Positions 35,270 through 51,958 of a stretch of DNA of 64,000 nucleotides are shown here, one piece after another. This stretch comes from a candidate division FCPU426 bacterium (GTDB taxonomy: Bacteria; Oederibacteriota; PGYV01; Palsa-1178): assembly GCA_963840035.1 (NCBI GenBank), contig CAWIXE010000001.1, positions 512,001-576,000 on the forward strand, written 5' to 3'. The notes under the pieces were generated by a model. It made no database searches, was not told the DNA's origin, and saw only the letters and a program-made list of their open reading frames with translations. Numbering within the stretch: position 1 is the first letter of the stretch; each line of letters begins with the position of its first letter. Made by a program: the position numbers and the translations under genes.

Positions 35270-35330
35270 GACCGCACAATTTGTAGGATTCGTTCTACAA
35301 GAATTTTTTAATCTAGTGGAGGTTTTAGTT

Positions 35331-35531
35331 ATGCCGAAGGGAAAAGTGAAATGGTTTAATGACAAGAAAGGTTATGGCTTCATCGAACAGGAAGGCGGAA
35401 AAGACGTGTTTGTGCACTACGCAGCAATCCAGGGCGACGGCTTCAAGACCTTAAAAGAAGGCCAGGAAGTTACTTTTGACGTCACAGAAGGCGCAAAGGG
35501 ACCGCAGGCTGCTAACGTAGTATCAGCATAA
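35331..35531 (+). CDS. cspA: Cold-shock protein
   Basis: [37 protein letters not shown]. Confidence 0.96.
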
Positions 35532-35864: not shown

Positions 35865-36060
35865 ATTTCTGCATGATAAAAGGTAAAAAAAATATGAGGG
35901 CAATGGAGAATCCCCATTTATAAAAAGCAAAAAATACATTTATGTGTTATTCACTTGAATAATCCGTAGAACACCCATATTAAAAATTGACAAAATACCT
36001 GTAAAATGATAAAATTAAGATGGACTAAGTGTCTCTATATTTACATTTTTGGAGGTATAT

Positions 36061-37705: not shown

Positions 37706-39115
37706 ATGAAATTTGGCAGCAAGAAAAGCGTGCTCATTTTGTGCGGAATATTCGTAACACTTCTTGCCGTAAGTTTTACCAGGATAAACAGCAGTTATAT
37801 TTTCCTGGCAGCGGGCCTGGCCGCCTCGCTCATTTCCTTTAACGGAGGGTGGGTTAACGGGGTTTTCATGTCGCTGCTTTTTAATTTTACTTTTTACTCG
37901 CTCCACACCGCTATGGGCGTCCAGAGCATGGTTTTAAATATAGCGGTTTTTTCAGCTCTTTCTGTGCTTGCGGACAGGCTTAAGATAGGAAGCAATGCTC
38001 CGGTTCAGAAGGATTCAAATCCCGAGGAAAAAGCTTTTGTAAACAAAGTAATAAATTCGTTCATGCTTGGCCATGACATGGTACGCGAGATAAAAAAAGG
38101 GATAACAAGGAGCGAACTGCTCGCTCTATTCGCGCGCAATGTATCAAACTTGACAGGCGCCGACCAGGTGCTGGTTTATACCGGTGAAAACGCCCCGGAA
38201 GGAAAGTTAAAGCTCACGCTCTCCGCGGGAAAATACCAGGAGAGGGTCATAGAGCCTGAAGCTGAAATTGAGAGTGTACTCTGTTTGTCGGAGAAAAACC
38301 TTCCCGCAAATGAAGCCGGATTCATAAAGAGCGTCAGCGACGGGTACGCCATCATAATGCCGGTCAATGAAAAGGGAAAAGCCGGGGACATCGCTGTGCT
38401 TTACAAGGGAAATGAGTTCTCATACAGCGACATATACATAGCCGAATTTTTCAGCGCGCAGATATTTGTCATAATGGAAAAGCAGGAACTCCTTAAAAAG
38501 ATGTCGGGAAATTACGAGCGCATCATAGAAGCCCTCGCCCTGGCCATAGATACCAAGGACCACGAGACGCACGGCCACTCGCTGGCCACCATGAAGTACG
38601 CCGTAAAAATCGCGGAAAAAATGAACCTGCCTGATGAGGAAAGGGAAATGATAAAATACGCCTCCCTCCTGCATGACATAGGAAAGATAAACATAAGCAG
38701 CGCCATACTTAACAAGCCCGACAAGCTTACGGCTGAGGAATTTGACATCATAAAAAAGCACCCGGAAGAGGGCGTGCACATTTTGGACAGGATGGACATA
38801 TTCGGGGAGATACTCCCGCTTGTTATGCACCATCACGAGCATTTTGACGGCAAAGGCTACCCAAAGAAGCTAAAGGGGGACAGCATCCCGCTGGGGTCCA
38901 GAATTTGCTCGATTGCGGACGCGTACTCGGTGATGGTGGCGGACCGCCCCTACAGGAAAGCGCGCACAAGGGATGAGGCCATTAATGAGCTGAAACGCTG
39001 CTCCGGGACGCAGTTTGACAGGCAGATAGTGGATGTCTTCCTCGGGATAATAAAGGAAGAAAACACGCAGGAAGCGGCATTACATAATATTACCGGCGCA
39101 GGGCCGGTAAACTGA
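37706..39115 (+). CDS. Membrane-bound HD-GYP phosphodiesterase with GAF-like region
   Basis: KDHETHGHS, LLHDIGK, HHEHFDGKGYP, DRPYR. Confidence 0.92.
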   Translation: MKFGSKKSVLILCGIFVTLLAVSFTRINSSYIFLAAGLAASLISFNGGWVNGVFMSLLFNFTFYSLHTAMGVQSMVLNIAVFSALSVLADRLKIGSNAPVQKDSNPEEKAFVNKVINSFMLGHDMVREIKKGITRSELLALFARNVSNLTGADQVLVYTGENAPEGKLKLTLSAGKYQERVIEPEAEIESVLCLSEKNLPANEAGFIKSVSDGYAIIMPVNEKGKAGDIAVLYKGNEFSYSDIYIAEFFSAQIFVIMEKQELLKKMSGNYERIIEALALAIDTKDHETHGHSLATMKYAVKIAEKMNLPDEEREMIKYASLLHDIGKINISSAILNKPDKLTAEEFDIIKKHPEEGVHILDRMDIFGEILPLVMHHHEHFDGKGYPKKLKGDSIPLGSRICSIADAYSVMVADRPYRKARTRDEAINELKRCSGTQFDRQIVDVFLGIIKEENTQEAALHNITGAGPVN

Positions 39116-39918
39116 TGGATGAGTTAACCGCGTTTAATAATATTAAGGCGCTGATATTGAAGGAAAAATTCCTAGATGTCACGCAGTACAAGGAAAATTA
39201 CCTGAAACGAAGGCTGGCGGTGCGGATGAGGGCGCTTAACGCCCACACGTACACCGACTACCTCGCGGTGATGGAAAAAAACAAGAACGAACTGAACATA
39301 CTTTTGGATAAGCTGACGATAAACGTAACGCAGTTCTTCAGGGACCCAGAAGTCTTCGTGGAACTTGAGAATGTCATACTGCCGGAACTTTTAGCCGGCG
39401 GAAAGACCGACTTAAGGGTGTGGAGCGCCGGATGTTCCTCAGGCGAGGAGCCTTACTCGATTGCCATTTCCATAGAGGAGACAGCGGAGCGGCTCGGTTT
39501 GAAAAACCTGAGATATGAGATTTATGCCACGGACTTAGACGATGAAATACTGCGCAGGGCCCTTGAAGGCAAGTACGAAGGCAGGACCCTGGACAACATA
39601 GCGGAGTCACGTAAGAGAAAATATTTTGATTTTGACGGAAAAAAATATTCCGTTACGCAGAGGATACGCAAAAACATCCTGTTTTTTAAGCATAACCTGA
39701 TGGAACCGTACAAAAAGGATTTTTTTAACCTGGTTTTCTGCAGGAATGTCATCATTTATTTTACGAGGGAACTGCAAAAAACGGTGTTACAGCACTATTA
39801 TGATTCCATGAAGGAGGGCGCGGTACTGTACCTGGGAAAGACCGAGACCATGCTCATGGAACACAGGAATAATTTTGAATGTATAAATATTAAGGAAAGG
39901 ATATTCAGGAAAATATAA
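39115..39918 (+). CDS. cheR: Chemoreceptor methyltransferase CheR
   Basis: TINVTQFFRD, RVWSAGCSSGEEPYS, CRNVIIYF. Confidence 0.97.
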   Translation: MDELTAFNNIKALILKEKFLDVTQYKENYLKRRLAVRMRALNAHTYTDYLAVMEKNKNELNILLDKLTINVTQFFRDPEVFVELENVILPELLAGGKTDLRVWSAGCSSGEEPYSIAISIEETAERLGLKNLRYEIYATDLDDEILRRALEGKYEGRTLDNIAESRKRKYFDFDGKKYSVTQRIRKNILFFKHNLMEPYKKDFFNLVFCRNVIIYFTRELQKTVLQHYYDSMKEGAVLYLGKTETMLMEHRNNFECINIKERIFRKI

Positions 39919-41084
39919 TGGACACAGTACAGGACCACATAAATCTCGGGCTGGCCTTTGCCATGAGCAAGCGCTATGACCAGGCCATAAAAGAATTTGA
40001 AAAGGCCCTCAGCATAAACGCTGACGACGCAGAGGTACTAAAGCACCTGGCTAACGCCTACGTTTATAAAGGCGAATATGACCAGGCCATAAACTCATAT
40101 GAAAAAGCCCTCAAGATCAATCCCATGAACGCCGAGGTAATAATGAAACTCGGAAAATTATACGCGAACATGGCCAATTTTGACAAGGCTCTGGTGCAGT
40201 ATAAAAAAGGGCTTGAGATCAACTCTACAGACTCAGCCTTAAGGCACGCGCTGGCAGACCTGTACGTGAAGATGGGAAAAAACGCCGAGGCCGAGGCCGA
40301 GTACAGGAAGATGATAGAAAAGGAACCGGCTAATATGGAGCTTATTTTCAAGCTCGGCTATATATTTGAATCCGAGAAAAAATACGCCGAAGCAGCGGTG
40401 GAATACGAGAAAGTCGTAAAGGCAAACCCTAAAAGCCCCGGCATTAATTCCATGCTTGGAAATGTTTACAGGGAATTAAAGCAGTTTGACAAGGCCATAG
40501 AGCATTATGACAAGGCCGTTAAGATAAATCCCAGGGATACCGCTGTGGCTTTTAACCTGGGGGTCCTGTATTTTGAAAGCGGGCAGAACGAAAAGGCCAT
40601 AACGCAGCTGGAGATAGCCAAGAAAAACAAGTTTAAAAATTCGGAAATATTCATAATCCTTGGGGAAGTGTACTCCAGGCTCGGCAGAAAAAAAGAAGCG
40701 CTTGAGGAATATAAAAAGGTAGCCGAGCTCGGGAGCGCGGACGCGGAAACGCATAAAGCCCTCGGGTTCATATACATGGAAGAGGACCAGCTCGACGACG
40801 CCCTCGCCGAATACAAAAAGGCCATGGAAACAAAATCAGACGACCCCGCGATATATGAGAATATGGGGCAGATATACTATAAAAAAATAATGTATAAGGA
40901 AGCGAAGGAATATTTCTCAAAGGCCATAGAGGCCGGCAGGGAAAGCGCGGACATGTTCTACAAGCTGGGGAACATATATATGAAGGAATCCAACCCGGAA
41001 AAGGCCAAGGAAAACTGGAACAAGTCGCTTAAGATATACCCGGAGAACGAGATAATAAAAAAGAATCTGAAACTGCTCGGCTGA
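39918..41084 (+). CDS. TPR-repeat protein
   Basis: Regular 34-aa LG...A...Y.KA..INP units along the whole length. Confidence 0.93.
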   Translation: MDTVQDHINLGLAFAMSKRYDQAIKEFEKALSINADDAEVLKHLANAYVYKGEYDQAINSYEKALKINPMNAEVIMKLGKLYANMANFDKALVQYKKGLEINSTDSALRHALADLYVKMGKNAEAEAEYRKMIEKEPANMELIFKLGYIFESEKKYAEAAVEYEKVVKANPKSPGINSMLGNVYRELKQFDKAIEHYDKAVKINPRDTAVAFNLGVLYFESGQNEKAITQLEIAKKNKFKNSEIFIILGEVYSRLGRKKEALEEYKKVAELGSADAETHKALGFIYMEEDQLDDALAEYKKAMETKSDDPAIYENMGQIYYKKIMYKEAKEYFSKAIEAGRESADMFYKLGNIYMKESNPEKAKENWNKSLKIYPENEIIKKNLKLLG

Positions 41085-41120
41085 GTTTAAAGTCAGGTTT
41101 TAAATTGCAGGGGGAAATGA

Positions 41121-41720
41121 ATGGAACTTTATAAAAAACAGGACAAGAGTTTGGGCGAACTCCTAATACAGGCGGGATTTATAACAAACGAGCAGCTGAA
41201 AGAATGCCTGCTGGAACAGCACTCGACAGGCGAGCCCCTGGGGAAAATCCTCATATCAAAGCATTATGTCAGGGAAGAGAACATCATAAACGTCTTAAAG
41301 GGTATGCTCGTGGTGGTGGTCGAGGTTAATAATGAAAAATTCGGAATAGAGATCATATACGCCAGGGAAATTATAAAATACAAAAAAATATCCGCCCTTC
41401 CGAACCTGCCGGACTACATCCTGGGCATGATGTCGCTTCGGGAGGATGTCATCCCGGTAGTCAGCCTTAATAAGAAAATTTTCAACAGGGAAGACGCCAT
41501 AACAGAAAACTCAAAGATAATAATTATAGACGGCAAAAAGGACCTGATGGGTGTTTTAGTGGATGAAGTCATAAACGTAAAGAATTACCAGTCGTCGGAT
41601 TTTGCCAATATCACAAAATACACCTTTACCATAGACAGAAAATACATCGCCGGGCTGATAAAGGACGGCGACGGGGTAATAACCCTAATAAAGCCGGAAA
41701 TCCTTTTTGAAGGCAGGTAA
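41121..41720 (+). CDS. cheW: CheW with N-terminal MshEN-like domain
   Basis: SLGELLIQAGFITNEQLKECLLEQ-HSTGE-PLGKIL, then ALPNLPDYILGMMSLREDVIPVVSL and GVLVDEV. Confidence 0.85.
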   Translation: MELYKKQDKSLGELLIQAGFITNEQLKECLLEQHSTGEPLGKILISKHYVREENIINVLKGMLVVVVEVNNEKFGIEIIYAREIIKYKKISALPNLPDYILGMMSLREDVIPVVSLNKKIFNREDAITENSKIIIIDGKKDLMGVLVDEVINVKNYQSSDFANITKYTFTIDRKYIAGLIKDGDGVITLIKPEILFEGR

Positions 41721-41722
41721 GC

Positions 41723-43927
41723 ATGGAAAAACCGGACAAAACGCCTTCAAAGGAATCAAAGTCTGAAAATGACGCCATAGAGCTTAATAATGTGGGCGTA
41801 TATTATTATTCCAAGGGAATGTATCAGGAAGCCATCGAGCAGTTCAAAAAAGCGCTGACTATAAACCCGTCATACGGACAGGCGCAGGGAAATTTAAAAG
41901 CAGTCAATAAGCAGACCGGCATTTACGACAGGGCAATATCCGCGTACAGGAAGGCGGTACAGCTTTATCCTTCGGACCCTGAGGCGAACTTCAACCTTGG
42001 AAAGTCGCTGTGCTACACGGGCGATTATGAAAGCGCGGTAAAGTCGTTAAAGAGGGCGCTCGAGCTCAACCCCGAGCACTTAATGGCGCAGAACCTTCTG
42101 GGAGTAATTTACAAGAATATGGGGGATTACGACCTGGCTGAAAAAGTTTTCAGGGAAGCCATGAAAAAATTCCCGAATTACGCGGAGTTAAGGAACAACC
42201 TTGGCGAGACGCTTTATAAAAAAGGGGCCTATGACGAGGCGGAAGAACAGCTGAAAAAGGCCATCCAGCTTAACAAGGAATACGCGCTGGCATACTATAA
42301 CATAAGTTTTGTTTACGGCGAAACAGGCAAGGACGAGGACGCGGGCATATGCTATAACCGCGCGGTGGAACTTAACCCCTCATTCATCAAATCAAACAAA
42401 TCCCTGGTCATCGACTATTACGAGTCAAACGCCGCCTCAAACTTAAAACGCGGCGAGGAAGTCGAAAAGATGGACGACGGAAAAAGGAAGGAAGAAGCCT
42501 ACTTCAACCTCGCGAAGGTGTATAAGCTCAAAGGCTACACTGATGACGCCATCACCCAGATAAAATCGGCCATTACTTTCAATTCCAAACAGCCCCAGTA
42601 CTATAACTTTTTCGGAGAGCTGCTCATAAAAAAAGGAATACTCAAGGAAGCCATTGAAATTTTCAAGCAGACCATAAAGTTAAAACCCGACATGGTGGAG
42701 GCAAAAGTAAATATTGCCGTAGCTTACAGGGAAATGAAGGAATTTGAAAAGGCCAGGGCGGTTCTTGACGCCATACAGGAGGAAAACCCGGAGTATACCA
42801 GGGTGGAACTCGAGCGCGGAATAATCCTTTATAAGGAAGAGCGCATAGAGGAAGCCATCACCCTTCTTTTAAAGCACCTTGAGACCGAGCCTTATGATGA
42901 CGAGGCAAGGTATTTCCTGGGGGTCTCATACTACAAACTGAAAAAATATGACGAGGCCGTGACCGAACTGCGCAAAGCCCTCGAGCTGCTCCCGAATTAC
43001 ATAAAGAAACCGGACATAAACCTCTACCTCGGCCTGGTCTTAACCGACAAGGGCAGGAATGAGGAGGCCATAATAGAGTACCAGAAGGCCATAGCTGTCC
43101 AGCCAAATAACGCGGTCGCGCATAATTCAATGGGCGTGGCCTTTAAAAACATGGGGAATGTGGACCGCGCCATAGAGGAATATCAAAAGGCTGTGGAAAT
43201 AGATAAGGAGTATTACAAGGCATATAACAACCTCGGGGTAGCATATTATAAGAAGAACTTTTTTAAGGAAGCCCAGAAATACTTCGAGCAGGCCCTGAAA
43301 ATCAACCCGGAGTATTCTGTGGCAAAAAAGAACCTGGATGCCGCGCAGAAAAAGGACGTGGTTTTCAAGGAAACCATTGAAAAATTAAGGGAAAAACAGG
43401 CTGAGGCGCCGGTGGACAGCATAGTCGCCTACGATCTTGGCAACGCGTACAGAAATACTGGACAATTGCAGGAGGCTATTGTAGAATATAAGAAAGTGCT
43501 TGCGGCAAGCCCCGGAAATACCGAGGCATTAAACAGCGTAGGGTCTGTGTATTTTGACACAGGCGACTATGATAATGCCGTAAAAGCCTTCATAACCGTC
43601 GTATCTCAGGACCCGAAAAACGCCAAAGGGCATCTTAACCTGGCCAACGCCTATTTTAAAAAGGAATGGTGGGACGAAGCCGACATCGAGTACCATAAAG
43701 CCCTTGAAATGAACGCTGACTTCGCGGAAGTGTATTTTAAGCTCGGCGAGGTATACAGGTGGAAGGGCTGGTGGGACGAGGCCATTGATATGTGGAAAAA
43801 ATACGTGGAAAAAGCGCCCGACACGGAGATGGCAAGGCTGGCGCAGGAAAATTTAAGGATGGTGGAAGTGTGGAAAAAAGAACTCATGCTTTCTCCTTCT
43901 TCAAGCAGGAAAAAGCTCATAAAATAA
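41723..43927 (+). CDS. Large TPR-repeat protein
   Basis: Many TPR units (NNLG..YY.KG, AHNSMG, AYNNLG). Confidence 0.93.
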   Translation: MEKPDKTPSKESKSENDAIELNNVGVYYYSKGMYQEAIEQFKKALTINPSYGQAQGNLKAVNKQTGIYDRAISAYRKAVQLYPSDPEANFNLGKSLCYTGDYESAVKSLKRALELNPEHLMAQNLLGVIYKNMGDYDLAEKVFREAMKKFPNYAELRNNLGETLYKKGAYDEAEEQLKKAIQLNKEYALAYYNISFVYGETGKDEDAGICYNRAVELNPSFIKSNKSLVIDYYESNAASNLKRGEEVEKMDDGKRKEEAYFNLAKVYKLKGYTDDAITQIKSAITFNSKQPQYYNFFGELLIKKGILKEAIEIFKQTIKLKPDMVEAKVNIAVAYREMKEFEKARAVLDAIQEENPEYTRVELERGIILYKEERIEEAITLLLKHLETEPYDDEARYFLGVSYYKLKKYDEAVTELRKALELLPNYIKKPDINLYLGLVLTDKGRNEEAIIEYQKAIAVQPNNAVAHNSMGVAFKNMGNVDRAIEEYQKAVEIDKEYYKAYNNLGVAYYKKNFFKEAQKYFEQALKINPEYSVAKKNLDAAQKKDVVFKETIEKLREKQAEAPVDSIVAYDLGNAYRNTGQLQEAIVEYKKVLAASPGNTEALNSVGSVYFDTGDYDNAVKAFITVVSQDPKNAKGHLNLANAYFKKEWWDEADIEYHKALEMNADFAEVYFKLGEVYRWKGWWDEAIDMWKKYVEKAPDTEMARLAQENLRMVEVWKKELMLSPSSSRKKLIK

Positions 43928-43946
43928 CAGGGGACCGGCAAATAAA

Positions 43947-44285
43947 ATGAAAAAAGTAACAGTCATAGTTCAGCCGGTAAAATTTGAAGCCATAAAAAAA
44001 GAACTCGTGGAAATGGGAGTCAACGGGATCACCATATCGGACTGCGAAGGCTATGGCTTTCAGAAAAGGAAAATTGACGTGCTTGAGGGCAAGGATGTAT
44101 CGGTGGAGTTCCTTCCCAAGGTAAAAATAGAAATAGTGCTGAAAGACGACGAAGTGGAAAAAATTATTGAAAAAATAATAGAAATAACCAGAACCGGAAG
44201 GATAGGCGACGGAAAGATATTCATAACCGATGTCGCGGAGGTCATAAGGATAAGGACCGGCGAGCGCGGGGAATACGCGGTTTAG
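43947..44285 (+). CDS. glnB: P-II family signal transduction protein with divergent T-loop
   Basis: 112 aa; FLPKVKIEIV, TGRIGDGKIF, IRIRTGE. Confidence 0.9.
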   Translation: MKKVTVIVQPVKFEAIKKELVEMGVNGITISDCEGYGFQKRKIDVLEGKDVSVEFLPKVKIEIVLKDDEVEKIIEKIIEITRTGRIGDGKIFITDVAEVIRIRTGERGEYAV

Positions 44286-44412: not shown

Positions 44413-44778
44413 ATGGCAAAAAGGATCTTAATAGCTGACGACGCGGCGTTTATGAGGATGATGCTTAAAAACATCCTGACAGCCGGAGGATATGACGTGG
44501 TGGGGGAGGCCGGAAACGGCCGCGAAGCCATAGCGAAATATAAAGAACTTAAGCCGGACATGCTGATTTCCGACATGGTTATGCCGGAGATGGGCGGCAT
44601 TGACGTCTTAAAAAATGTGATAGCTGAATTCCCGGCCGCGAATGTTTTAATATGCAGCGCCATAGGCCAGCAGGCGCTGGTCATAGAGGCTATACAGGCG
44701 GGAGCCAAGGATTACATCGTAAAACCTTTTGAACAGTCAAACGTGCTTGAGACCGTAGCAAAAATACTGGGAGCATAA
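44413..44778 (+). CDS. cheY: CheY response regulator
   Basis: LIADDAAFMR, SDMVMPEMGG, SAIGQQ, IVKPF. Confidence 0.95.
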   Translation: MAKRILIADDAAFMRMMLKNILTAGGYDVVGEAGNGREAIAKYKELKPDMLISDMVMPEMGGIDVLKNVIAEFPAANVLICSAIGQQALVIEAIQAGAKDYIVKPFEQSNVLETVAKILGA

Positions 44779-44779
44779 G

Positions 44780-45403
44780 ATGGCGGAAAATAAATTAAGC
44801 GAATTCCAGCGGGACGCCCTTAAAGAACTTGGCAATATAGGCGCGGGAAGCGCGGCCACGGCGTTATCGCAGCTGCTTGGAAAAGACATTAACATAGACG
44901 TACCTTCCATTACCATGGTCCCCATAGAAAAGATGGCTGAGATGGCTGCGCAGGATACAAAGATAGTGGCGGCCGTGTACATGAGGATATACGGCGAAAT
45001 ACAGGCAAGGGCGCTGCTTTTATTCCCGCAGGACAAGGTATTTTTCATGCTTGATTTGCTGATGAAAAGAAAACTCGGGCAGACCACGGAATTCGGCGAG
45101 ACCGAACAGTCAGCCCTTAAAGAAATAGGGAACATCCTTATATCCGCGTACTTAAACGCCATAGCCAAATTCATAGGGTTAAATTCCGTGCCGTCGGTGC
45201 CGGCGCTTGCCGTGGACATGACAGACGCGATATTTGAGACCATATCCGCCGAACTTGCGGAAGTGGGCCCGGAAGCCATGCTCATAGAAAATGAGATGAT
45301 GGAATCAGTGACCAACTTAAAGACAAAGTTATTCATAATACCTGATAAGGCGGCAATGGCAAAGATCCTTGAGGCCCTGAATAATACAATACAGGGCGCC
45401 TGA
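44780..45403 (+). CDS. cheC: CheC phosphatase
   Basis: DALKELGNIGAGSAATALSQL and SALKEIGNIL. Confidence 0.95.
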   Translation: MAENKLSEFQRDALKELGNIGAGSAATALSQLLGKDINIDVPSITMVPIEKMAEMAAQDTKIVAAVYMRIYGEIQARALLLFPQDKVFFMLDLLMKRKLGQTTEFGETEQSALKEIGNILISAYLNAIAKFIGLNSVPSVPALAVDMTDAIFETISAELAEVGPEAMLIENEMMESVTNLKTKLFIIPDKAAMAKILEALNNTIQGA

Positions 45404-45408
45404 GATAA

Positions 45409-45888
45409 ATGGCCGGCGAGATCATAAAAGTAAACATGGGTGAGCTTAAAATCGGCCGGCAGGAGGACATACTTGCCGCGTACGGAGTGGGCTCATGCAT
45501 CATCGTGGCCTGCTATCAGAGGAACAACATGACGGCCGGCATGCTGCACGGGATTTTGCCCGAGAAACCCGGCACAAAGGGAACTAACGACAACAAGTAC
45601 TTAAACACCGGCATAGAGAACCTGGTAAAGGCCATGATGAAAGAGGGACTGTCGATAAACGGCCTTGAAGCCAAGATTTTCGGCGGGGCAAAGATGTTTG
45701 ACATGACCAGCGATACGGCGGCCATAGGCGAGCGCAATATAAAGATGGCAAAGATGATGCTCGATAAAAAGGGCATTAAGATAGCGGCGGAAGACACGGG
45801 CAGCAATTACGGCAGGACCATAGAATTCAGGGTAAATGACAAGTCGGCAACTATAAGGAGTTTTCAGAAAGGCACCATAATAATTTAA
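45409..45888 (+). CDS. cheD: Chemoreceptor glutamine deamidase CheD
   Basis: [37 protein letters not shown]. Confidence 0.95.
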
Positions 45889-45901
45889 ACGGCGGTTAAC
45901 A

Positions 45902-47164
45902 ATGGCGGGAAAACACGACGACTGGTTGAGAAAGATAGTAATGATAAACGCAGGGGCCGGAATCGGGTCGGCCCTTATATTCGGATTATTATGCGCGCTG
46001 CTGCATATAAAAACGGACAGTGTGATATTTTTTGTCCTGTTACTTATACTTGCCGGGGTTTTAATGGCCGTTAATTCCATAGCGGGGATGAAGATAGGCG
46101 CTGATAAATTTGACAAGCTCGCGGTAAAATTTGAAAAAATAGCGTCAGGAGACCTCACGGATGAAGTCAAAATAAAGGGCGGTTTTGTAAAGTCCATAAC
46201 AATGAGCGTCAATAAAATGATAGACGACCTCCGGAACATGCTCGGAAAACTCGACGATTCCACGGGCGTCATTATGAACCTGGCCGAGAATTTATCGGCT
46301 TCCACGCAGGAGATAAACGCCTCCGCGGAGGAAATATCCTCCACGGTCCAGCAGATAGCGCGCGGCGTGGAGCAGCAGGCGGAGAGGACAGTGGAGACTT
46401 CCCGCATCATGGAAAACATGTCGAACTCCATACAGGAAGTGGCGCAGAAGTCAGAAGAAGTGCTCGGCGTGGCAAAATCAGCCAAGGACGCCTCGGAGCA
46501 CGGCATACATTCCGTGGACGAGACCGTAAAAAAGATGGAAGAGATAGTCATAGTGACAAAGAAAGCCAAGGAATCCATAGAGGAACTGAAAGTTTATTCC
46601 GAAAAAATCGAGGAAGTCGTCAACATAATAACTGATATAGCGGACCAGACCAACCTTCTGGCTTTAAACGCCGCCATTGAGGCTGCGCGCGCCGGCGAGG
46701 CGGGTAGGGGATTTGCGGTTGTCGCCGACGAAGTAAGGAAGCTCGCGGAAGGCTCGGCAGGAGCCGCGAAGGAAATCACGCGCCTAGTGGAGGACATACA
46801 CGAGAAGACTGAGAATGTCGTAAAGGACATAGTCGTCGGCGTGAAGGAAACTGAAGAGGGAAAACAGGTTGCCAAGCAGAGCGGGGACGCCCTGCGCAAG
46901 ATAGACGACATAGTAAGCAGGGTTGTATCGCTTTCAAACGAGATTACAAGCCTCTCAAAAGCGCAGGCAGAGGACACGGACAGGGTGGTAAAAGCAGTCG
47001 AGGAAATAGCGGCCGTAGCCGAGGAAACAGCTGCAGGAACGCAGCAGGCATCGGCCTCCACGCAGCAGCAGACGGCATCCATGGAAGAAATCGCGGCGCA
47101 GGCGCAGGAGCTGGCCCAGACCGCGGAAGTATTAAAAGGCATGATGTCAAAGTTCAGGAGATAA
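45902..47164 (+). CDS. Methyl-accepting chemotaxis protein lacking a periplasmic sensor domain
   Basis: Two adjacent TMs, [42 protein letters not shown]. Confidence 0.96.
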
Positions 47165-47167
47165 AAA

Positions 47168-47662
47168 TTGGAAAATAAGATTGTAGGGTTTAAGCTTAGG
47201 GATGATGAATTCGCCTTCGATATCATGAAGGTTGTGGAAATCATCAGGCTTAAAAACCAGATAACCGAGGTGCCCACGGCGCCAAAGTTCATAGAAGGGG
47301 TCATAAACTTAAGGGGCAAGATCATCCCCATCATAGACCTGCGCAAGCGTTTTAATATGGAGGATAAGGAAGCCACCAAGCAGGCCAGGATAATAATCAC
47401 GGAATTCCTGAAAAACCAGCTCGTCGGGGTGGTGGTGGACGAAGTTACCAAAGTCTTAAACGTCAGGCCTGAGGAAGCGCTTCCGGCGCCGCCGTCTGTT
47501 ACAGGCGTGGGAGGAAGGTACATACAGTCGCTGGTTAAGACAGGCGAAAAAATAATAGTCCTGCTCGACATAGAAAAAATCTTCACCGAACAGGAGCAGG
47601 AAGACATAAAGGAATTGCTACAATCCGAAGGAGGCAAAATTGAAGAAAGTTCTAATCGTTGA
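47168..47662 (+). CDS. cheW: CheW
   Basis: VPTAPKFIEGVINLRGKIIPIIDLR, GVVVDEV. Confidence 0.96.
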   Translation: MENKIVGFKLRDDEFAFDIMKVVEIIRLKNQITEVPTAPKFIEGVINLRGKIIPIIDLRKRFNMEDKEATKQARIIITEFLKNQLVGVVVDEVTKVLNVRPEEALPAPPSVTGVGGRYIQSLVKTGEKIIVLLDIEKIFTEQEQEDIKELLQSEGGKIEESSNR

Positions 47663-48002
47663 TGATACCAAATTCATGAGGAACATCCTGGCCTCCATAC
47701 TTAAGAAAAAAGACCTGGAGGTCGTGGGAGAAGCCGTGAACGGCAGGGAAGCCATAGAGAAGTATAAGGAATTAAGGCCGGACCTTGTCACTATGGACAT
47801 AATAATGCCCGAGATTGACGGCATACAGGCAGTGAAGGAAATAATGAAGATAGACCCGGCGGCAAAGATACTTATGTGCAGCGCCATGGGACAGCAGGCT
47901 CTGGTAATAGAAGCCATACAGGCGGGCGCCAAGGATTTTGTGATCAAACCTTTCCAGCCGACAAGGGTTTTGGAAGCAGTCGACAGAACGTTCCAGGAGT
48001 AA
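47640..48002 (+). CDS. cheY: CheY response regulator
   Basis: LIVDDTKFMR, TMDIIMPEIDG, SAMGQQ, KPF; TTG start after GGAGG. Confidence 0.95.
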   Translation: MKKVLIVDDTKFMRNILASILKKKDLEVVGEAVNGREAIEKYKELRPDLVTMDIIMPEIDGIQAVKEIMKIDPAAKILMCSAMGQQALVIEAIQAGAKDFVIKPFQPTRVLEAVDRTFQE

Positions 48003-48008
48003 ACCATA

Positions 48009-49073
48009 ATGGGAAAGATCAGGGTCCTTGTAGTGGATGACTCGGCCTTCATGAGGAAAATAATTCCGGACATGTTAAATGAAGACAGCTCCATAGAGGT
48101 CATAGCCACGGCAAAAGACGGCAAGGACGCTTTTAAAAAGGTTATGGAATTAAAGCCGGATGTTGTCACCCTTGACGTTGAAATGCCCGGCATGGACGGG
48201 TTACAGACGCTCGGATACATCATGAGCGAACAGCCCACCCCGGTAATCATGCTCTCCGCGTACACCCCCCAGGGAGCCGAGACCACTATCAAATCATTGC
48301 AGTACGGCGCCGTGGATTTTGTGTGCAAGCCTTCCGGAGAGATATCACTCGACATAAAAAAAGTGCAGGCCGAGCTTGTGGAAAAAATAAAGGCCGCGAA
48401 AAACATAGACACATCCACCGTTAAATTCCTCCTTCCTGACAACTCGGAGCCGGCAAAAAAAGAAAAAATAACAGCCCGCAAGAATGAACTGCTCGTCATC
48501 ATAGCCGCCTCAACCGGCGGGCCCAGGGCCCTGACAGAAGTGGTCCCAAACATACCGCGCGACCTTCCGGCGGCATTTCTCATCATACAGCACATGTCCG
48601 AAGGCTTTACAAAGACGCTGGCGGAGCGCTTAAACTCGCTTTCCATGATACAGATAAAGGAAGCCGAGCACGGCGAAGTGATCAAAGCCGGAAACGCCTA
48701 CCTGGCCCCGGGCGATTATCACATGGAAATTTCCAAAAGCGGCGACGAATACTGCATAGACTTAAACCAGAAACCATCCAGGCTCGGAGTGAGGCCATGC
48801 GCTGACATGACTTTTTTCTCGGCGGCTAAAGTTTTTGGCGGAAAAATAATCGGGGTTGTTTTAACGGGAATGGGCAAGGACGGCACTGCCGGAGCTGAAA
48901 TGATAAGGCAGAAAAACGCGAGAATCATAGCGCAGGATAAGGAAACAAGCGTCATATACGGCATGCCCAAGTCAGTGGCTGAAAAAGGGTATGTGGACAG
49001 GGTGCTGCCGATTACATCGATTGCCGCGGCCATTACTGACGAGATAAAAAGGGCATTAGAGGAAGTCAAATAA
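48009..49073 (+). CDS. cheB: CheB methylesterase (REC plus catalytic domain)
   Basis: VVDDSAFMR, ASTGGP, IQHM, LTGMGKDG. Confidence 0.97.
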   Translation: MGKIRVLVVDDSAFMRKIIPDMLNEDSSIEVIATAKDGKDAFKKVMELKPDVVTLDVEMPGMDGLQTLGYIMSEQPTPVIMLSAYTPQGAETTIKSLQYGAVDFVCKPSGEISLDIKKVQAELVEKIKAAKNIDTSTVKFLLPDNSEPAKKEKITARKNELLVIIAASTGGPRALTEVVPNIPRDLPAAFLIIQHMSEGFTKTLAERLNSLSMIQIKEAEHGEVIKAGNAYLAPGDYHMEISKSGDEYCIDLNQKPSRLGVRPCADMTFFSAAKVFGGKIIGVVLTGMGKDGTAGAEMIRQKNARIIAQDKETSVIYGMPKSVAEKGYVDRVLPITSIAAAITDEIKRALEEVK

Positions 49074-49224
49074 TATCGTAGAGACGCCACCGGTGGGCGT
49101 CTCAGGGCTGGAGCTAGTCGGGAACGGGTCCCGTCTCTACGAAGACATTAAGAAGGATAGAAACGCCGGTAGCCGCAGCCTTTAGGCTGCGAAACGATGT
49201 GTGAAGTATGGAGGAAGTAAATAA

Positions 49225-51267
49225 ATGAACACAGAAGATTATAAAGAAGCGTTTTTAGAGGAAGCCGCTGAGAATGTAAACATTCTCAACAAAGCCTTGC
49301 TTGCCTTTGAAAAAAACATAGATGACTTAACGCCGTTAAACGAACTTTTCCGCGCGGCGCATACCTTAAAAGGCATGTCAGCCACCATGGGCTACGATAA
49401 GATGGCGGAATTCACCCACATGCTCGAAGAAGTCATGGATAAGATACGCGGGGGAATGCTCGCGCCCGGCCTCGACGTGGTGAACCTGCTTTTTAAGTCC
49501 ATAGATATAATGCAGGAATTTGTGGAAAACATTAAAACAAAAAACGTGGATTTTGCCGATGGCTACCGGGAAACCATAGACCGTATAAAGCAGATAAAGG
49601 GAACCTCGTCCGAAGAAATAAAAACCGCCCCGGCAAAACCGCAGCCGGCCCCGGCCATTCCCGGCGCCCGCGCCCTGGCAGGCGTGTCCATAGACCTTGA
49701 AATAGAAGCAATGGCCCTTGAAGAAGCGGCAAAGCAGTCCATGAAGGTTTTTAAAATACGCGTGGCCGTGGCAAGGTCTTGCGCCTTTAAAAATGTGCGC
49801 TCATTTATGGTATTCAGGAACCTCTCCGAAAAAGGGGAAATAATAAAAGCAAACCCGAAAGCCAAGGACATAGAAGAGGGTAATTTTGATTACGCGTTCA
49901 CCCTGGGGTATGTGACAAGCTTATCAGCTGATGAGGTGAACAAGCTCATCTCCAGGATCGCCGAGATTGACAGCGTCGAAGTCGAGGAAATAAAGCTTCC
50001 GGAAAATCCGGCCGGGGCCCCGGCATCGGCGCAGGAAGACAGGGATGAAAAACAGGAACACGCAGATGAAAAAAAAGAAAAAGCGCCGAAGGACAAAAAA
50101 GGCCCGCTTTCACAGAGCGTGAGGGTGAATATAGAAAAACTTGACTCCATGATGAACTTAGTCGGGGAGCTTGTGATAAACAAGATAAGGCTCGACCAGA
50201 TAACCAAGAGCAAATCATTCGGGGAGTTATCGCCCACGGTCGCTGAATTTGACAGGATCATAGACGCGCTGCAGATAGAAGTAACGGATGTCCGCATGCT
50301 TCCCGTGTCGCACATATTCGACAGGTACCCGAGGGTCATCAGGGATTTAGCCGCGGACGCAGGCAAACAGATAGAAGTGGAAATAATCGGAGGAGACATT
50401 GAAATAGACAGGACAGTGCTTGAGGAGATAAACGAGCCTGTCATGCACTTAATCAGGAATTCCGTGGCGCACGGCATAGAGATACCTGACAAGAGGGAAA
50501 TGGCGGGAAAGAACAGAAAAGGCGTGATAAGGATGTCCGCGCGCAGGGAACGCAACTCAGTTATCATAGAAGTATCGGACGACGGCGCAGGGGTTAACGT
50601 GGAAAAGGTCAGAAAAAAAGCGGTGGAAAAGGGCATAATGCCTGCGGATAAAATAGAGAGTTTGTCTGAAGAAGAAGCGGTAAATCTAATAACCCTCCCG
50701 GGTTTTTCCACGGTAGATAAGGTTAATACGGTATCAGGAAGGGGCGTCGGCGTCGACGTTGTAAAAACAAAAGTCGAGGCGTTCGGCGGTATCTTTAAGA
50801 TAGAAAACCATCCCGGCGAGGGAATGAAGTCGATTCTAAAACTGCCGCTTACGCTGGCAATCATACAGGCGCTTTTAGTCAAGGCGGGCGGCGGAATATA
50901 CGCCATACCGGTCATACATACCATAGAAACAGTGGAACTCCCGATAACCGAGATAAAAGTCATTCAGGACCGCAGGGTGCTGGTGCTGCGGGATGAAGTT
51001 GTGCCTGTGCTCTCGCTGGCTGAGCTTATAGGCAAGCCCAGGGACGTGCATGATGTGGTGCACATGGTCATCATAGAGTCGCGTGAAAAGAAGATAGCCA
51101 TGGAAGTGGAGGCTGTAATCGGCCAGCAGGAAATAGCCATCAAAAGCCTCGGTGAATTTTTAAAGTACGCAAAGGGTTTTTCCGGAGTGACAATACTTGG
51201 CGACGGGTCGATAAGCCTTATAGTGGACGTGCAGTCGCTCATTGAGGCGAATATAAAGCTGGTGTAA
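49225..51267 (+). CDS. cheA: Chemotaxis histidine kinase CheA
   Basis: FRAAHTLKG, P2 domain, MNLVGELVI, HLIRNSVAHG, SGRGVGVDVV, LPLTLAI, C-terminal CheW domain. Confidence 0.98.
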   Translation: MNTEDYKEAFLEEAAENVNILNKALLAFEKNIDDLTPLNELFRAAHTLKGMSATMGYDKMAEFTHMLEEVMDKIRGGMLAPGLDVVNLLFKSIDIMQEFVENIKTKNVDFADGYRETIDRIKQIKGTSSEEIKTAPAKPQPAPAIPGARALAGVSIDLEIEAMALEEAAKQSMKVFKIRVAVARSCAFKNVRSFMVFRNLSEKGEIIKANPKAKDIEEGNFDYAFTLGYVTSLSADEVNKLISRIAEIDSVEVEEIKLPENPAGAPASAQEDRDEKQEHADEKKEKAPKDKKGPLSQSVRVNIEKLDSMMNLVGELVINKIRLDQITKSKSFGELSPTVAEFDRIIDALQIEVTDVRMLPVSHIFDRYPRVIRDLAADAGKQIEVEIIGGDIEIDRTVLEEINEPVMHLIRNSVAHGIEIPDKREMAGKNRKGVIRMSARRERNSVIIEVSDDGAGVNVEKVRKKAVEKGIMPADKIESLSEEEAVNLITLPGFSTVDKVNTVSGRGVGVDVVKTKVEAFGGIFKIENHPGEGMKSILKLPLTLAIIQALLVKAGGGIYAIPVIHTIETVELPITEIKVIQDRRVLVLRDEVVPVLSLAELIGKPRDVHDVVHMVIIESREKKIAMEVEAVIGQQEIAIKSLGEFLKYAKGFSGVTILGDGSISLIVDVQSLIEANIKLV

Positions 51268-51334
51268 TACAATTTTATATTTGAAATTTTCAATTTTAAA
51301 TTAATTGCAAGAAAGACGAAATAAGGAGAATACA

Positions 51335-51958
51335 ATGGCGGACGGAAGTTTACAGAATCTTTCGGACATACAGACAGACGCGTTAAAAGAGGTCGGGAAC
51401 ATAGGCGCGGGGCACGCTGCCACGGCGCTTTCCCAGCTTATAAAGAAAAAAATAATGATATCAGTGCCGACGGTAAAAGTCATCAAGTCGCAGGACATAG
51501 AGACACTTCTGGGCGACCCGAACACGCTGGTGGCCGGCATCATTATGAATGTATTGGGCGATATAACCGCGAAAATCCTTCTTCTTTTAACCAGGGAATC
51601 GGCCCTTTCGCTTGTGGATATGCTACTGCAGAAACCCGTCGGGTCCACAAAAGTATTATCCGAGGTGGGAAACTCCGCCATAAAGGAAACAGGAAACATC
51701 CTAGCCGGGGCATACATGAATTCTTTGAACGAGTTTCTGGGGCTCATGCTTTTGCCGTCGGTCCCGAATCTCGTATTTGATATCTCAAGCGCGATACTTT
51801 CATCGCTCTCTGACGGTTTTGACGGGATGTCACAGCACATCCTTTCCATAGAAACGCAGTTTTCGGAAGCAAATGAAAAGGTCATTAAAGGTTATTTACT
51901 CCTGATACCGGACGAGCCTTCGGTGAAGGTGTTGTTGCAGTCGATAAAGGTTGGGTAA
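51335..51958 (+). CDS. cheC: CheC phosphatase (second copy)
   Basis: DALKEVGNIGAGHAATALSQL and SAIKETGNIL; RBS AAGGAG. Confidence 0.95.
   Translation: MADGSLQNLSDIQTDALKEVGNIGAGHAATALSQLIKKKIMISVPTVKVIKSQDIETLLGDPNTLVAGIIMNVLGDITAKILLLLTRESALSLVDMLLQKPVGSTKVLSEVGNSAIKETGNILAGAYMNSLNEFLGLMLLPSVPNLVFDISSAILSSLSDGFDGMSQHILSIETQFSEANEKVIKGYLLLIPDEPSVKVLLQSIKVG

What the first reader, a model, noticed from the sequence alone, without database searches (positions are those of the whole stretch)
41121..41720. MshEN-CheW fusion: a possible c-di-GMP-gated coupling protein
Seen: residues 10-33 fit LGxxLLxxGxIxxxxLxxxLxxQ, followed by a 5-aa linker, a partial second motif (PLGKIL) and a CheW domain. 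Both leading Arg residues are replaced (Ser, Pro). Known: MshEN is a c-di-GMP receptor usually found on PilB/GspE ATPases. I do not recall a characterised CheW fusion. Inference: c-di-GMP acts directly on receptor-kinase coupling, with the co-encoded HD-GYP as the local eraser.
Basis: partly seen in the sequence, partly recalled or inferred. Interest (0 to 1): 0.8.

Follow-up and report, generated by a model that had tools for sequence, protein, structure and literature searches.

The report
CheW adaptor with c-di-GMP-type module
This gene encodes a second chemotaxis adaptor protein (CheW) whose front end is the small four-helix module that other proteins use to bind the messenger c-di-GMP, so the "swim or settle" signal could act directly on the chemoreceptor-kinase complex, though ligand binding is untested.

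Summary
ORF 41121-41720 (+) encodes 199 aa. Residues 10-62 are an MshEN_N-type module: motif I 10-33, a 5-residue linker, and a full-length motif II 39-62. NCBIfam NF053729 scores 61.5 bits against a cut-off of 38. The model superposes on c-di-GMP-bound MshE at Z 9.5, rmsd 0.9 A over 53 residues. The CheW domain follows with no linker.

Of 14 MshE contact residues, 11 are kept or conservatively replaced. Three differ: R9->S10, R38->P39, Q61->M62. Loss of Arg does not rule out binding: PilF GSPII-B (K/L, 6 nM) and GSPII-C (Pro at that position, ~0.3-0.5 uM) both bind c-di-GMP (PMC11731258). Ser at position 1 and the missing second Gln remain real doubts.

The fusion is in 64 of 99 genomes of the phylum and arose once. 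Its N-module is better conserved than its CheW domain. The HD-GYP neighbour is specific to part of the lineage.

A 2016 survey listed MshEN_N in CheA and CheX but not in a stand-alone CheW, and I found none in print. This scan has noted the same fusion before on other genomes. Ligand binding is plausible, about 55%, and untested.

The parts
41121..41720 (+). Gene for the 199-aa MshEN_N-CheW fusion protein (stop codon included)
   Evidence: ORF. NCBIfam and Pfam hits. AF2 model with mean pLDDT 85.9.
41110..41115 (+). GGGGGA Shine-Dalgarno-like run, 5 nt before the ATG
   Evidence: Read directly from the sequence.
41148..41219 (+). Motif I of the MshEN_N module, residues 10-33 (S10 ... Q33)
   Evidence: Sequence. 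NF053729 alignment covers residues 11-60. Gap-free structural register to MshE residues 7-59. G12, L30 and Q33 are present in 161 of 161 relatives.
41220..41234 (+). Five-residue linker, residues 34-38 (HSTGE)
   Evidence: Sequence. E38 is invariant in the 25 phylum-wide sequences.
41235..41306 (+). Motif II of the MshEN_N module, residues 39-62 (P39 ... M62). The last residue is already the first residue of CheW strand beta-1.
   Evidence: Sequence. In the model, helix 52-60 is followed directly by strand 62-69. P39, G41 and K42 are present in 161 of 161 relatives.
41310..41708 (+). CheW-like domain, residues 64-196
   Evidence: PF01584, 92.3 bits. Z 20.0, rmsd 2.0 A over 139 residues to TtCheW 2qdl_B. 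End-to-end alignment to E. coli CheW.
37706..39115 (+). Membrane-anchored HD-GYP phosphodiesterase gene in the same operon, three genes upstream. It is a lineage-specific neighbour.
   Evidence: HD_5 132 bits. The translation carries HDIGK and HHEHFDGKGYP. Present in 6 of 11 related loci that span the spot and in 0 of 8 distant loci.
39115..39918 (+). cheR
   Evidence: PF01739 and PF03705.
39918..41084 (+). 388-aa TPR protein. It lies immediately upstream of the fusion in 12 of 13 related loci, and 7 of 8 distant loci carry a full-length homologue (the eighth, L044, has only a partial match).
41723..43927 (+). 734-aa TPR protein that starts 3 nt after the fusion's stop codon
   Evidence: TPR families. 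It follows the fusion in 9 of 13 related loci and in 7 of 8 distant loci.
43947..44285 (+). P-II-like protein gene
   Evidence: PF00543, 94.5 bits. Present in 8 of 8 distant loci.
44413..51958 (+). Rest of the single che operon: cheY, cheC, cheD, mcp, canonical cheW (47168-47662), a second cheY (47640-48002), cheB, cheA (49225-51267) and a cheC/X-like gene
   Evidence: Pfam hits. The genome has only three CheW-like domains.

Best explanation
The gene encodes a second CheW-type coupling protein of the organism's only chemotaxis system. Its N-terminal 62 residues form an MshEN_N four-helix module.

Inferred mechanism of ligand binding: the module binds one c-di-GMP molecule as MshE and PilF do.
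- Each guanine sits on a triad of hydrophobic residues: L26/L30/L40 for one base and L11/I55/L59 for the other.
- The backbone amides of G12-E13 and G41-K42 read the guanine O6 and N7 atoms.
- Q33 holds the ribose-phosphate.
- The family-specific, nearly invariant Q7-x-K9-S10 tail stands in for the missing Arg 'lid'.

Inferred mechanism of signalling: helix alpha-4 runs straight into strand beta-1 of CheW with no linker. Ligand-dependent ordering of the module could therefore change how this CheW sits between the receptors and CheA-P5. Kinase coupling would then change as c-di-GMP rises. This is the logic of CheV (CheW plus a regulatory domain), with a second messenger as the input.

Shown here: the homology, the fold, the fusion, its conservation, and its place in the che operon. 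Inferred: ligand binding (about 55%) and its effect on coupling (about 40%).
For: Homology and fold:
- NF053729 scores 61.5 bits against a cut-off of 38. All 25 of 25 phylum-wide members hit it at E <= 1e-5.
- The family profile hits MshE 5htl and PilF GSPII chains.
- The model's residues 8-60 superpose on c-di-GMP-bound MshE 5htl_B (Z 9.5, rmsd 0.9 A over 53 residues) and on PilF GSPII-B 8pdk_A (Z 9.6, rmsd 1.5 A over 54).

Binding residues:
- 11 of 14 MshE contact residues are identical or conservatively replaced (using the register).
- None of the Gly or Leu changes that Wang 2016 lists for the non-binder XpsE is present (PMC5013675, passage).
- G12, G41, L30 and Q33 are present in 161 of 161 relatives. 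Q33's only known role is to contact the ligand.

Selection on the module:
- The N-module is 40-56% identical across the phylum, against 23-33% for the CheW domain (20 orthologues).
- Mean column entropy is 0.96 bits for the N-module and 1.89 bits for the CheW domain.
- 8 of the 10 invariant columns lie in the N-module.

Arg is dispensable in known binders:
- PilF GSPII-B has K167/L196 and binds at 6 nM. GSPII-C has P335 at motif II position 1 and binds at about 0.3-0.5 uM (PMC11731258).
- D. geothermalis PilB_2 has K and A at these positions and binds at 13.5 nM (Wang 2016 supplement).
- In distant members of this family, position 1' is P, K, A or L. All four occur in proven binders.
- Q61A in MshE costs only 11.8-fold in affinity.

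Genomic context:
- The genome makes and reads c-di-GMP: 17 GGDEF matches, 10 HD_5 matches and 15 PilZ matches.
- It has one CheA, only three CheW-like domains, and the flagellar export gene flhA.
- The fusion lies inside the che operon.
- Of 73 phylum genomes with CheA, 62 also have the fusion.
Against: - No binding data exist for any member of this family.
- Three side-chain contacts are changed in every member: Ser/Thr at position 1 (S in 143 and T in 14 of 161), Pro at position 1', and Met/Leu/Ile at position 24'.
- In PilF GSPII-A, putting Ser back at position 1' removed measurable binding, though in a background that was already weak. A stabilised N-cap on helix alpha-1 also blocks that site (PMC12002112). 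Ser10 followed by L-G-E could form such an N-cap.
- Losing one terminal Gln cost 77-fold in PilF and about 12-fold in MshE.
- The invariant residues Q7, K9, E38 and K42 are not part of the canonical motif and could serve a protein contact instead.
- Pfam's MshEN model does not hit.
- The CheW domain of the fusion evolves fast. Its internal branches are 1.13 and 2.2 changes per column, so its coupling role may have diverged.
- The HD-GYP neighbour is not a conserved part of the system.
Confidence: 0.5

Rival explanations
1. The N-module is a degenerate MshEN_N that no longer binds c-di-GMP. It works as a protein-protein contact or scaffold. For example, it could dock the CheW paralogue to the two conserved TPR proteins that flank it, or to another array component. 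Non-binding relatives of this kind are known: PilF GSPII-A, and the N-domain of XpsE/GspE.
For: - Positions 1, 1' and 24' differ from the R/K/L...Q consensus in all 161 relatives.
- Ser at position 1' abolished binding in a GSPII-A construct (PMC12002112).
- Wang 2016 notes many MshEN domains that have lost binding.
- The family-specific invariant residues Q7, K9, E38 and K42 lie outside the canonical contacts.
- The flanking TPR genes are conserved phylum-wide.
Against: - Both glycines, all six triad hydrophobic residues and Q33 are kept at or near 100%. A pure scaffold would not need this pattern.
- Known non-binders carry Gly-to-bulky or Leu-to-charged changes that are absent here.
- Position 1' varies only among residues seen in proven binders.
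- The TPR link rests on gene neighbourhood alone.
Confidence: 0.3
2. The module does bind c-di-GMP, but the protein does not tune kinase coupling inside the array. Instead the ligand controls whether this CheW paralogue is recruited, displaced or sequestered, so that it competes with the canonical CheW. Alternatively, the protein tethers other proteins to the array.
For: - A canonical CheW is always co-encoded: 17 loci have both, and the two are only 33% identical here.
- The fusion's CheW domain forms its own fast-evolving clade.
- PMC11731258 discusses c-di-GMP as a possible structural cofactor that forms a composite surface.
Against: - There is no direct evidence either way.
- The CheW domain aligns end to end with E. 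coli CheW and keeps the Arg of the 'LR(G)' segment.
- That Arg (R107) is nearly invariant, present in at least 90% of the 25 phylum-wide sequences.
Confidence: 0.12
3. The module binds a different nucleotide, for example cGAMP, pGpG or another cyclic dinucleotide, rather than c-di-GMP.
For: - VcMshEN shows weaker binding of cGAMP (Wang 2016 figure legend).
- The altered 'lid' residue (S10) and the lost Gln at position 24' could shift specificity.
Against: - In MshE, guanine is read by the backbone amides after the two glycines, and both glycines are invariant here.
- No second-messenger system other than c-di-GMP was looked for in this genome.
Confidence: 0.05

Closest known systems
MshEN_N subdomain of Vibrio cholerae MshE (PDB 5HTL; Wang et al. 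2016, PMC5013675)
   Same: - It has two 24-residue motifs joined by 5 residues, folded as four helices.
- The structural alignment is gap-free (model 8-60 to MshE 7-59, Z 9.5, rmsd 0.9 A, 38% identity).
- 11 of 14 contact residues are kept or conservatively replaced.
   Different: - There is no MshEN_C subdomain and no ATPase. The module is fused to CheW instead.
- R9, R38 and Q61 are replaced by S, P and M.
- Binding is untested.
Thermus thermophilus PilF GSPII-B and GSPII-C (PDB 8PDK; Neissner et al. 2024, PMC11731258)
   Same: - These are the closest sequences in the PDB (E 2e-8 for the 66-residue query; 50% identity over 48 columns).
- They bind c-di-GMP without Arg at position 1. GSPII-C has Pro at motif II position 1, as here.
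   Different: - PilF has K or L, not Ser, at motif I position 1.
- The two motifs of GSPII-B that bind c-di-GMP end in Gln190 and Gln218, the targets of the Q190E and Q218E variants; here motif II ends in Met62.
- The PilF domains sit on a pilus ATPase.
[quoted passage not shown] 2016
   Same: The same module is fused to a chemotaxis protein, and c-di-GMP input into chemotaxis was predicted from the architecture alone.
   Different: - The host protein there is the kinase or the phosphatase, not the stand-alone adaptor.
- A CheW-only fusion is not in that table: 'CheW' occurs once, as the P5 part of CheA.
- None of these fusions has been tested, as far as my searches show.
CheV (CheW fused to a receiver domain). 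This comparison is recalled from general knowledge and comes from no call.
   Same: It is a CheW-type adaptor that carries a regulatory domain and coexists with a plain CheW in one system.
   Different: - The regulatory domain of CheV is C-terminal and is phosphorylated by CheA.
- Here the regulatory domain is N-terminal and of a ligand-binding type.
- No receiver domain is present.
PilZ-based c-di-GMP inputs into chemotaxis: the PilZ chemoreceptor Cbp1 (PMC6454048, listing and abstract), PlzC acting with CheX in V. cholerae (PMC12799141, abstract and passages), and MapZ-CheR1 (seen only as references)
   Same: c-di-GMP feeds into the chemotaxis pathway through a dedicated receptor protein.
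   Different: These use a different receptor fold (PilZ) and different points of entry: the receptor, the methyltransferase or the phosphatase. None acts through the coupling protein.
Non-binding relatives: PilF GSPII-A (PMC12002112) and Xanthomonas XpsE N-domain (Wang 2016)
   Same: They share the fold and have deviations at the first and last motif positions.
   Different: - They also carry Gly-to-Ala/Val/Leu or Leu-to-charged changes, and GSPII-A has an elongated, capped helix alpha-1.
- Here both glycines and all triad residues are kept.
- The model starts helix 1 at residue 11.

Membership tests
MshEN_N / GSPII N-terminal c-di-GMP module (NCBIfam NF053729) | Curated profile match above the cut-off | tested here: met
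   61.5 bits against a cut-off of 38, residues 11-60 matching profile positions 2-51 of 53. All 25 of 25 phylum-wide members match at E <= 1e-5.
MshEN_N / GSPII N-terminal c-di-GMP module (NCBIfam NF053729) | Two 24-residue motifs separated by a 5-residue linker | tested here: met
   Residues 10-33, 34-38 and 39-62. The register to MshE 7-59 is gap-free.
MshEN_N / GSPII N-terminal c-di-GMP module (NCBIfam NF053729) | Compact four-helix fold | tested here: met
   The AF2 model has helices 11-17, 23-36, 40-46 and 52-60 with block pLDDT of 82-95. Z 9.5-9.6 to 5htl_B and 8pdk_A. This is a prediction, not a solved structure.
MshEN_N / GSPII N-terminal c-di-GMP module (NCBIfam NF053729) | Gly at position 3 of both motifs, so that backbone amides can read guanine | tested here: met
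   G12 and G41 are present in 161 of 161 relatives.
MshEN_N / GSPII N-terminal c-di-GMP module (NCBIfam NF053729) | Two hydrophobic triads (positions 2, 17 and 21 of each motif) | tested here: met
   L11, L26, L30, L40, I55 and L59. Relatives show only L/I/V/F/M at these positions.
MshEN_N / GSPII N-terminal c-di-GMP module (NCBIfam NF053729) | Gln at position 24 of both motifs | tested here: not met
   Q33 is present in 161 of 161 relatives. Position 24' is M62 here, and M, L or I in all 161.
MshEN_N / GSPII N-terminal c-di-GMP module (NCBIfam NF053729) | R/K/L at position 1 of both motifs (extended consensus of Neissner 2024) | tested here: not met
   S10 and P39. Pro at position 1' does occur in the proven binder PilF GSPII-C and in Wang's relaxed pattern [RKPN]. 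Ser does not occur in either.
MshEN_N / GSPII N-terminal c-di-GMP module (NCBIfam NF053729) | Binds c-di-GMP | not testable with these tools
   This needs ITC, DRaCALA or NMR on purified protein.
Full MshEN / T2SSE_N domain (Pfam PF05157) | Pfam profile match that includes the C-terminal subdomain | tested here: not met
   PF05157 was not listed even at E <= 1. CheW strand beta-1 starts at residue 62, so there is no room for MshEN_C.
CheW (Pfam PF01584) | Profile match and two-subdomain beta-barrel fold | tested here: met
   92.3 bits against a cut-off of 23.5. Z 20.0, rmsd 2.0 A over 139 residues to 2qdl_B.
CheW (Pfam PF01584) | Conserved Arg of the 'LRG' segment. Its E. coli number, R62, is recalled and comes from no call. 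| tested here: met
   R107 aligns with the Arg of E. coli 'NLRG'. It is nearly invariant in A2.
CheW (Pfam PF01584) | Binds CheA-P5 and chemoreceptors | not testable with these tools
   This is inferred from homology and from the location in the che operon only.
CheV | CheW domain plus a receiver (REC) domain | tested here: not met
   No Response_reg hit in this protein. The resemblance is in logic only.

The most novel reading that the evidence does not exclude
c-di-GMP binds this CheW paralogue and directly gates receptor-kinase coupling in the organism's only, flagellar, chemotaxis system. The protein would belong to a phylum-wide four-gene insert (TPR, MshEN_N-CheW, TPR, P-II) that feeds second-messenger and perhaps metabolic status into the chemosensory array. 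This would be a CheV-like regulatory principle with a nucleotide as the input, and the first c-di-GMP receptor located at the coupling protein.
Probability: 0.35. Interest if true: 0.8.

Novelty: new variant of a known kind. Interest (0 to 1): 0.55.

Why it matters
c-di-GMP is the main bacterial switch between swimming and settling. Its known routes into chemotaxis go through PilZ proteins that act on receptors, CheR, CheX or the motor.

A receptor built into the coupling protein would place the messenger at the heart of the receptor-kinase lattice. The idea is directly testable with a 63-residue domain and a standard CheA assay.

The family also carries a natural Ser/Pro/Met variant of the MshEN motif, fixed in one phylum for a long time. 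Measuring its affinity would sharpen the rules used to predict which of the many MshEN-like domains in genomes are real receptors.

Current Pfam-based annotation calls all these proteins plain 'CheW'.

Tried and rejected
- Pfam did not list PF05157 at E <= 1. The only N-terminal Pfam hints were DUF4388 (E 0.01) and FumaraseC_C (E 0.098), both below their cut-offs, and I did not pursue them.
- A word-based search with residues 1-63 alone returned only the same family: 18 proteins, all CheW-annotated. It says nothing about other phyla.
- In the exhaustive HMM search, the 150 listed hits were mostly multi-CheW proteins. Only P0054, P0106, P0170 and the fragment P0125 matched in one stretch across both domains of the query. 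P0170 is identical at the N-terminus to a phylum member (L023). Fusions outside this phylum that score below about 154 bits could not be seen, so 'restricted to this phylum' is not established.
- The cluster look-up gave no taxonomy.
- dN/dS comparison of the two domains failed because synonymous sites are saturated (74 and 64 of 91 pairs). Only pN could be compared: 0.269 for the N-module against 0.314 for CheW.
- Expression: no RNA holder was listed. One DNA run held a small share of the words, and I did not lay it.
- Complex prediction with the fusion, CheA-P5 and c-di-GMP riding along gave no verdict. Scores were 0.14 and 0.09, under the mark of 0.32, and the controls were not run. This is no evidence for or against binding. 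The pair is also a textbook one.
- The promoter and terminator scan gave only consensus matches. The best is TTGACA-17-TAAAAT at 35987-36015, upstream of the first gene of the operon.
- I considered and rejected a chance motif match or a mis-called start. The profile E-value, the conservation and the SD-like site argue against both.
- I could not inspect inter-domain contacts in the model, because no coordinates are available in the script box.
Full report
WHAT IS THERE

Window 41121-41720 (+) is an ORF of 199 codons. A GGGGGA run lies 5 nt before its ATG. The gene starts 36 nt after the stop codon of a TPR gene, and the next TPR gene starts 3 nt after its own stop. It therefore sits inside a tightly packed operon.

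Pfam finds one domain, CheW, at residues 64-196 (92.3 bits, cut-off 23.5). It finds nothing significant in the first 63 residues, and its T2SSE_N/MshEN model is not listed even at E <= 1.

NCBIfam does recognise the N-terminus. NF053729, 'cyclic di-GMP-binding domain-containing protein, MshE-related', is a 53-position domain model. It matches residues 11-60 at E 4.8e-17 and 61.5 bits, against a curated cut-off of 38. Weaker matches fall on the MshEN parts of NfrB-type glycosyltransferases and of PilB.

By sequence:
- Residues 10-33 are motif I (S-LGELLIQAGFITNEQLKECLLEQ).
- Residues 34-38 are the five-residue linker.
- Residues 39-62 are a full-length motif II (P-LGKILISKHYVREENIINVLKGM).

The one exception is that motif II is complete in length, not partial.

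HOMOLOGY AND FOLD

A profile of 51 full-length homologues hits the c-di-GMP complex of V. cholerae MshE (5htl_A, E 4e-9, query 5-76 to chain 4-76). It also hits the GSPII domains of Thermus PilF (about 1e-8) and CheW structures. The 66-residue N-terminus alone hits PilF GSPII-B at E 2e-8 and MshE at 2.5e-6.

An AlphaFold2 model built on that alignment has mean pLDDT 85.9 and pTM 0.70. It shows four helices (11-17, 23-36, 40-46, 52-60) followed at once by CheW strand 62-69.

- Foldseek superposes 48 columns on 8pdk_A at rmsd 0.8 A and 50% identity.
- VIA-align gives Z 9.5, rmsd 0.9 A over 53 residues to c-di-GMP-bound MshE (model 8-60 to chain 7-59, no gaps). It gives Z 9.6 to PilF GSPII-B.
- For the CheW domain it gives Z 20.0 to TtCheW.

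The CheW part aligns end to end with E. coli CheW and keeps the Arg of the 'LRG' segment. It is 33% identical to the operon's canonical CheW.

CAN IT BIND c-di-GMP?

I used the gap-free structural register to map the 14 MshE residues that Wang et al. 2016 name as contacts (passages). They map as follows:

| MshE | This protein | Status |
|---|---|---|
| L10, G11, L25, L29, Q32, L39, G40, L58 | L11, G12, L26, L30, Q33, L40, G41, L59 | identical |
| D12 | E13 | backbone contact, side chain tolerated |
| D41 | K42 | backbone contact, side chain tolerated |
| L54 | I55 | conservative |
| R9 | S10 | changed |
| R38 | P39 | changed |
| Q61 | M62 | changed |

The literature bears on each of the three changes.

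- Arginine is dispensable in known binders.
  - PilF GSPII-B has K167 and L196 and binds at 6 nM. K167R weakens binding 25-fold, and K167L tightens it to 2 nM (PMC11731258, section 7).
  - D. geothermalis PilB_2 has K and A at these positions and binds at 13.5 nM (Wang 2016 supplement).
  - Wang's own relaxed search pattern allows [RKPN] at position 1.
  - The genome's own PilB-like protein (L001) also reads EPLGRIL.
- Loss of one terminal Gln weakens binding but does not abolish it. Q61A in MshE costs 11.8-fold. Q218E in PilF costs 77-fold but still leaves a Kd of 460 nM. Only the double Gln mutant loses binding.
- Ser at position 1 is the real worry. In engineered PilF GSPII-A, restoring Ser39 at position 1' abolished measurable binding, though in a background already at 19 uM. 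A capped, elongated helix alpha-1 also blocks that site (PMC12002112, sections 6 and 9). Here the model begins helix 1 at residue 11 and leaves residues 1-10 unstructured. That makes S10 a possible N-cap but does not show an elongated helix.

CONSERVATION

Conservation argues that the module is functional.

In 161 family members, taken from the lists and all 170-290 aa long, the following holds:
- G12, L14, L30, Q33, P39, G41, K42 and G61 are present in 161 of 161.
- Q7 is present in 160 and K9 in 159.
- Position 1 is S in 143 and T in 14.
- Position 24' is M, L or I in all.
- Mean column entropy is 0.96 bits for residues 7-61 and 1.89 bits for the CheW domain.

Across 20 distant orthologues, the N-module is 40-56% identical to the window protein, against 23-33% for the CheW domain. 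In a 25-sequence phylum-wide alignment, 8 of the 10 invariant columns lie in the N-module.

Position 1' varies among P, K, A and L in distant lineages. All four residues occur in proven binders.

Q33 has no known role other than holding the ligand's ribose-phosphate, so its invariance is the strongest single hint. The equally invariant Q7-x-K9-S10 tail is specific to this family. It may replace the Arg lid, which is inference, or it may be a protein contact.

All 25 of 25 phylum-wide members pass NF053729 at E <= 1e-5.

GENOMIC SETTING

The window's genome is 3.46 Mb and 98% complete. It has:
- 4 MshEN_N matches, three of them in 575-649-aa frames (two of these read as PilB-like) and the fourth being this protein;
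- 17 GGDEF matches, some of which are pieces of one frame;
- 10 HD_5 matches and 15 PilZ matches;
- 5 MCP signalling domains and the flagellar export gene flhA;
- only three CheW-like domains: the canonical CheW, this protein, and CheA-P5.

So there is one chemotaxis system, probably flagellar, with two adaptors.

The operon in the window reads: a 392-aa protein, HD-GYP, CheR, TPR, the fusion, TPR, P-II-like, CheY, CheC, CheD, MCP, CheW, CheY, CheB, CheA, CheC/X-like, and an FtsA/PilM-like ATPase.

Thirteen related loci were found among 116 candidate stretches. Among them:
- The 388-aa TPR gene precedes the fusion in 12. L016 starts too late to tell.
- The 734-aa TPR gene follows the fusion in 9. 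L006 goes straight to cheY. L008 has no che gene in the 10 kb downstream. L009 and L011 end too early to tell.
- The HD-GYP gene lies between the 392-aa gene and cheR in 6 of the 11 loci that span that junction.

In eight more distant loci:
- The block CheR-TPR-fusion-...-P-II-CheY-CheC-CheD-CheW-CheY-CheB is kept in 8 of 8.
- The 734-aa TPR gene is present in 7 of 8.
- None has an HD-GYP gene upstream of cheR.
- One (L039) has a receiver gene plus an HD-GYP gene after cheB.

The HD-GYP is therefore a lineage-specific addition. It is suggestive of a c-di-GMP link but is not part of the conserved core.

DISTRIBUTION AND ORIGIN

Of the 99 species genomes of the phylum that are held, 64 have a full-length match, and of the 60 high-quality ones, 47 do. 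The CheA dimerisation domain is present in 73. The overlap is:

| | CheA present | CheA absent |
|---|---|---|
| Fusion present | 62 | 2 (G029, G039; 89-90% complete) |
| Fusion absent | 11 | 24 |

These genomes are related to one another, so the counts are descriptive and not a statistical test.

In a maximum-likelihood tree of 22 fusion CheW domains, 17 canonical CheW proteins and 12 CheA-P5 domains, the fusion domains form one group (support 97/80, 96% of bootstrap trees), with long internal branches. This fits a single old fusion that was inherited vertically, with a faster-evolving CheW part.

Source names on relatives include Candidatus Goldiibacteriota/Goldbacteria and candidate division FCPU426. 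Some records are labelled Spirochaetia or Methylomirabilis. All named relatives are called plain 'CheW'.

WHAT IS KNOWN

Wang et al. 2016 state that MshEN is also associated with REC, HD-GYP, CheA, CheX, cyclases and kinases (main text). [quoted passage not shown] 'CheW' occurs once in that file, as the last domain of that CheA.

Full-text searches found no paper that describes a stand-alone MshEN-CheW protein or c-di-GMP binding by a CheW:
- MshEN + CheW (16 papers, none relevant by title; most were name coincidences);
- MshEN + chemotaxis + CheA;
- T2SSE_N + CheW (0 papers);
- c-di-GMP + CheW + 'coupling protein' + 'binds c-di-GMP' (2 papers, on a PilZ chemoreceptor and on FsnR);
- MshEN_N (6 papers).

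I checked passages of PMC12943098, PMC10212136 and PMC12799141 and found nothing on this fusion. Subscription-only papers are outside these searches.

This scan's own notebook holds follow-up notes on the same architecture in at least five other genomes, with the same conclusion. My results agree with them and were obtained independently on this window.

VERDICT

- The fusion and its homology are solid.
- c-di-GMP binding is plausible, and I put it near 55%.
- Direct gating of receptor-kinase coupling is an attractive but untested inference, at about 35-40%.
- The HD-GYP 'local eraser' is a lineage-specific neighbour only.

I class this as a new variant of a known kind. The known kind is a c-di-GMP module placed on chemotaxis proteins, catalogued in 2016 for CheA and CheX. 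The new variant places it on the stand-alone adaptor and carries a fixed Ser/Pro/Met form of the motif.

Noticed in passing
window 39918-44285: Between cheR and cheY lies a four-gene insert: a 388-aa TPR gene, the fusion, a 734-aa TPR gene and a P-II-like gene. It is conserved across the phylum. The 734-aa TPR protein is 65-80% identical among close loci and about 40% identical in distant ones. The role of a P-II-type protein in a che operon is unexplained.
   Followed up: partly
window 47640-48002: A second CheY-like receiver gene (120 aa, TTG start) overlaps the end of the canonical cheW by about 20 nt. It is 80-93% identical across the related loci.
   Followed up: partly
window 52127-54250: A 707-aa protein with FtsA/PilM/MreB-like actin-fold matches closes the che operon. 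It is also found after cheC2 in L006 and L044.
   Followed up: no
L039 (G023:C3) 17756-19231: In one distant relative, a receiver gene plus an HD-GYP-like gene follow cheB. This is a different way of placing a c-di-GMP phosphodiesterase in the same operon.
   Followed up: no
window 2419-3750: A 443-aa GGDEF diguanylate cyclase gene lies in the same window, about 37 kb upstream of the fusion.
   Followed up: no
window 33218-35200: An IS200-like Y1 transposase fragment (weak match) and an HTH_38 protein lie just upstream of the operon. A cold-shock-domain ORF follows at 35157-35531.
   Followed up: no
own genome G000:C2:1224496-1231231: A third MshEN_N-bearing frame of 649 aa lies about 6 kb from a PilZ gene that is directly next to an MCP gene.
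   Followed up: no
L002 (G000:C3:169465-169623): One of the genome's PilB-like paralogues has Lys at motif I position 1 and Ser at motif II position 1 (DSLGVIL). This is another natural Ser variant of the motif.
   Followed up: no
L006 6721-6866 and L008 10588-20588: Two close relatives break the synteny. L006 lacks the 734-aa TPR and P-II genes between the fusion and cheY. L008 has no che gene in the 10 kb downstream of the fusion.
   Followed up: no
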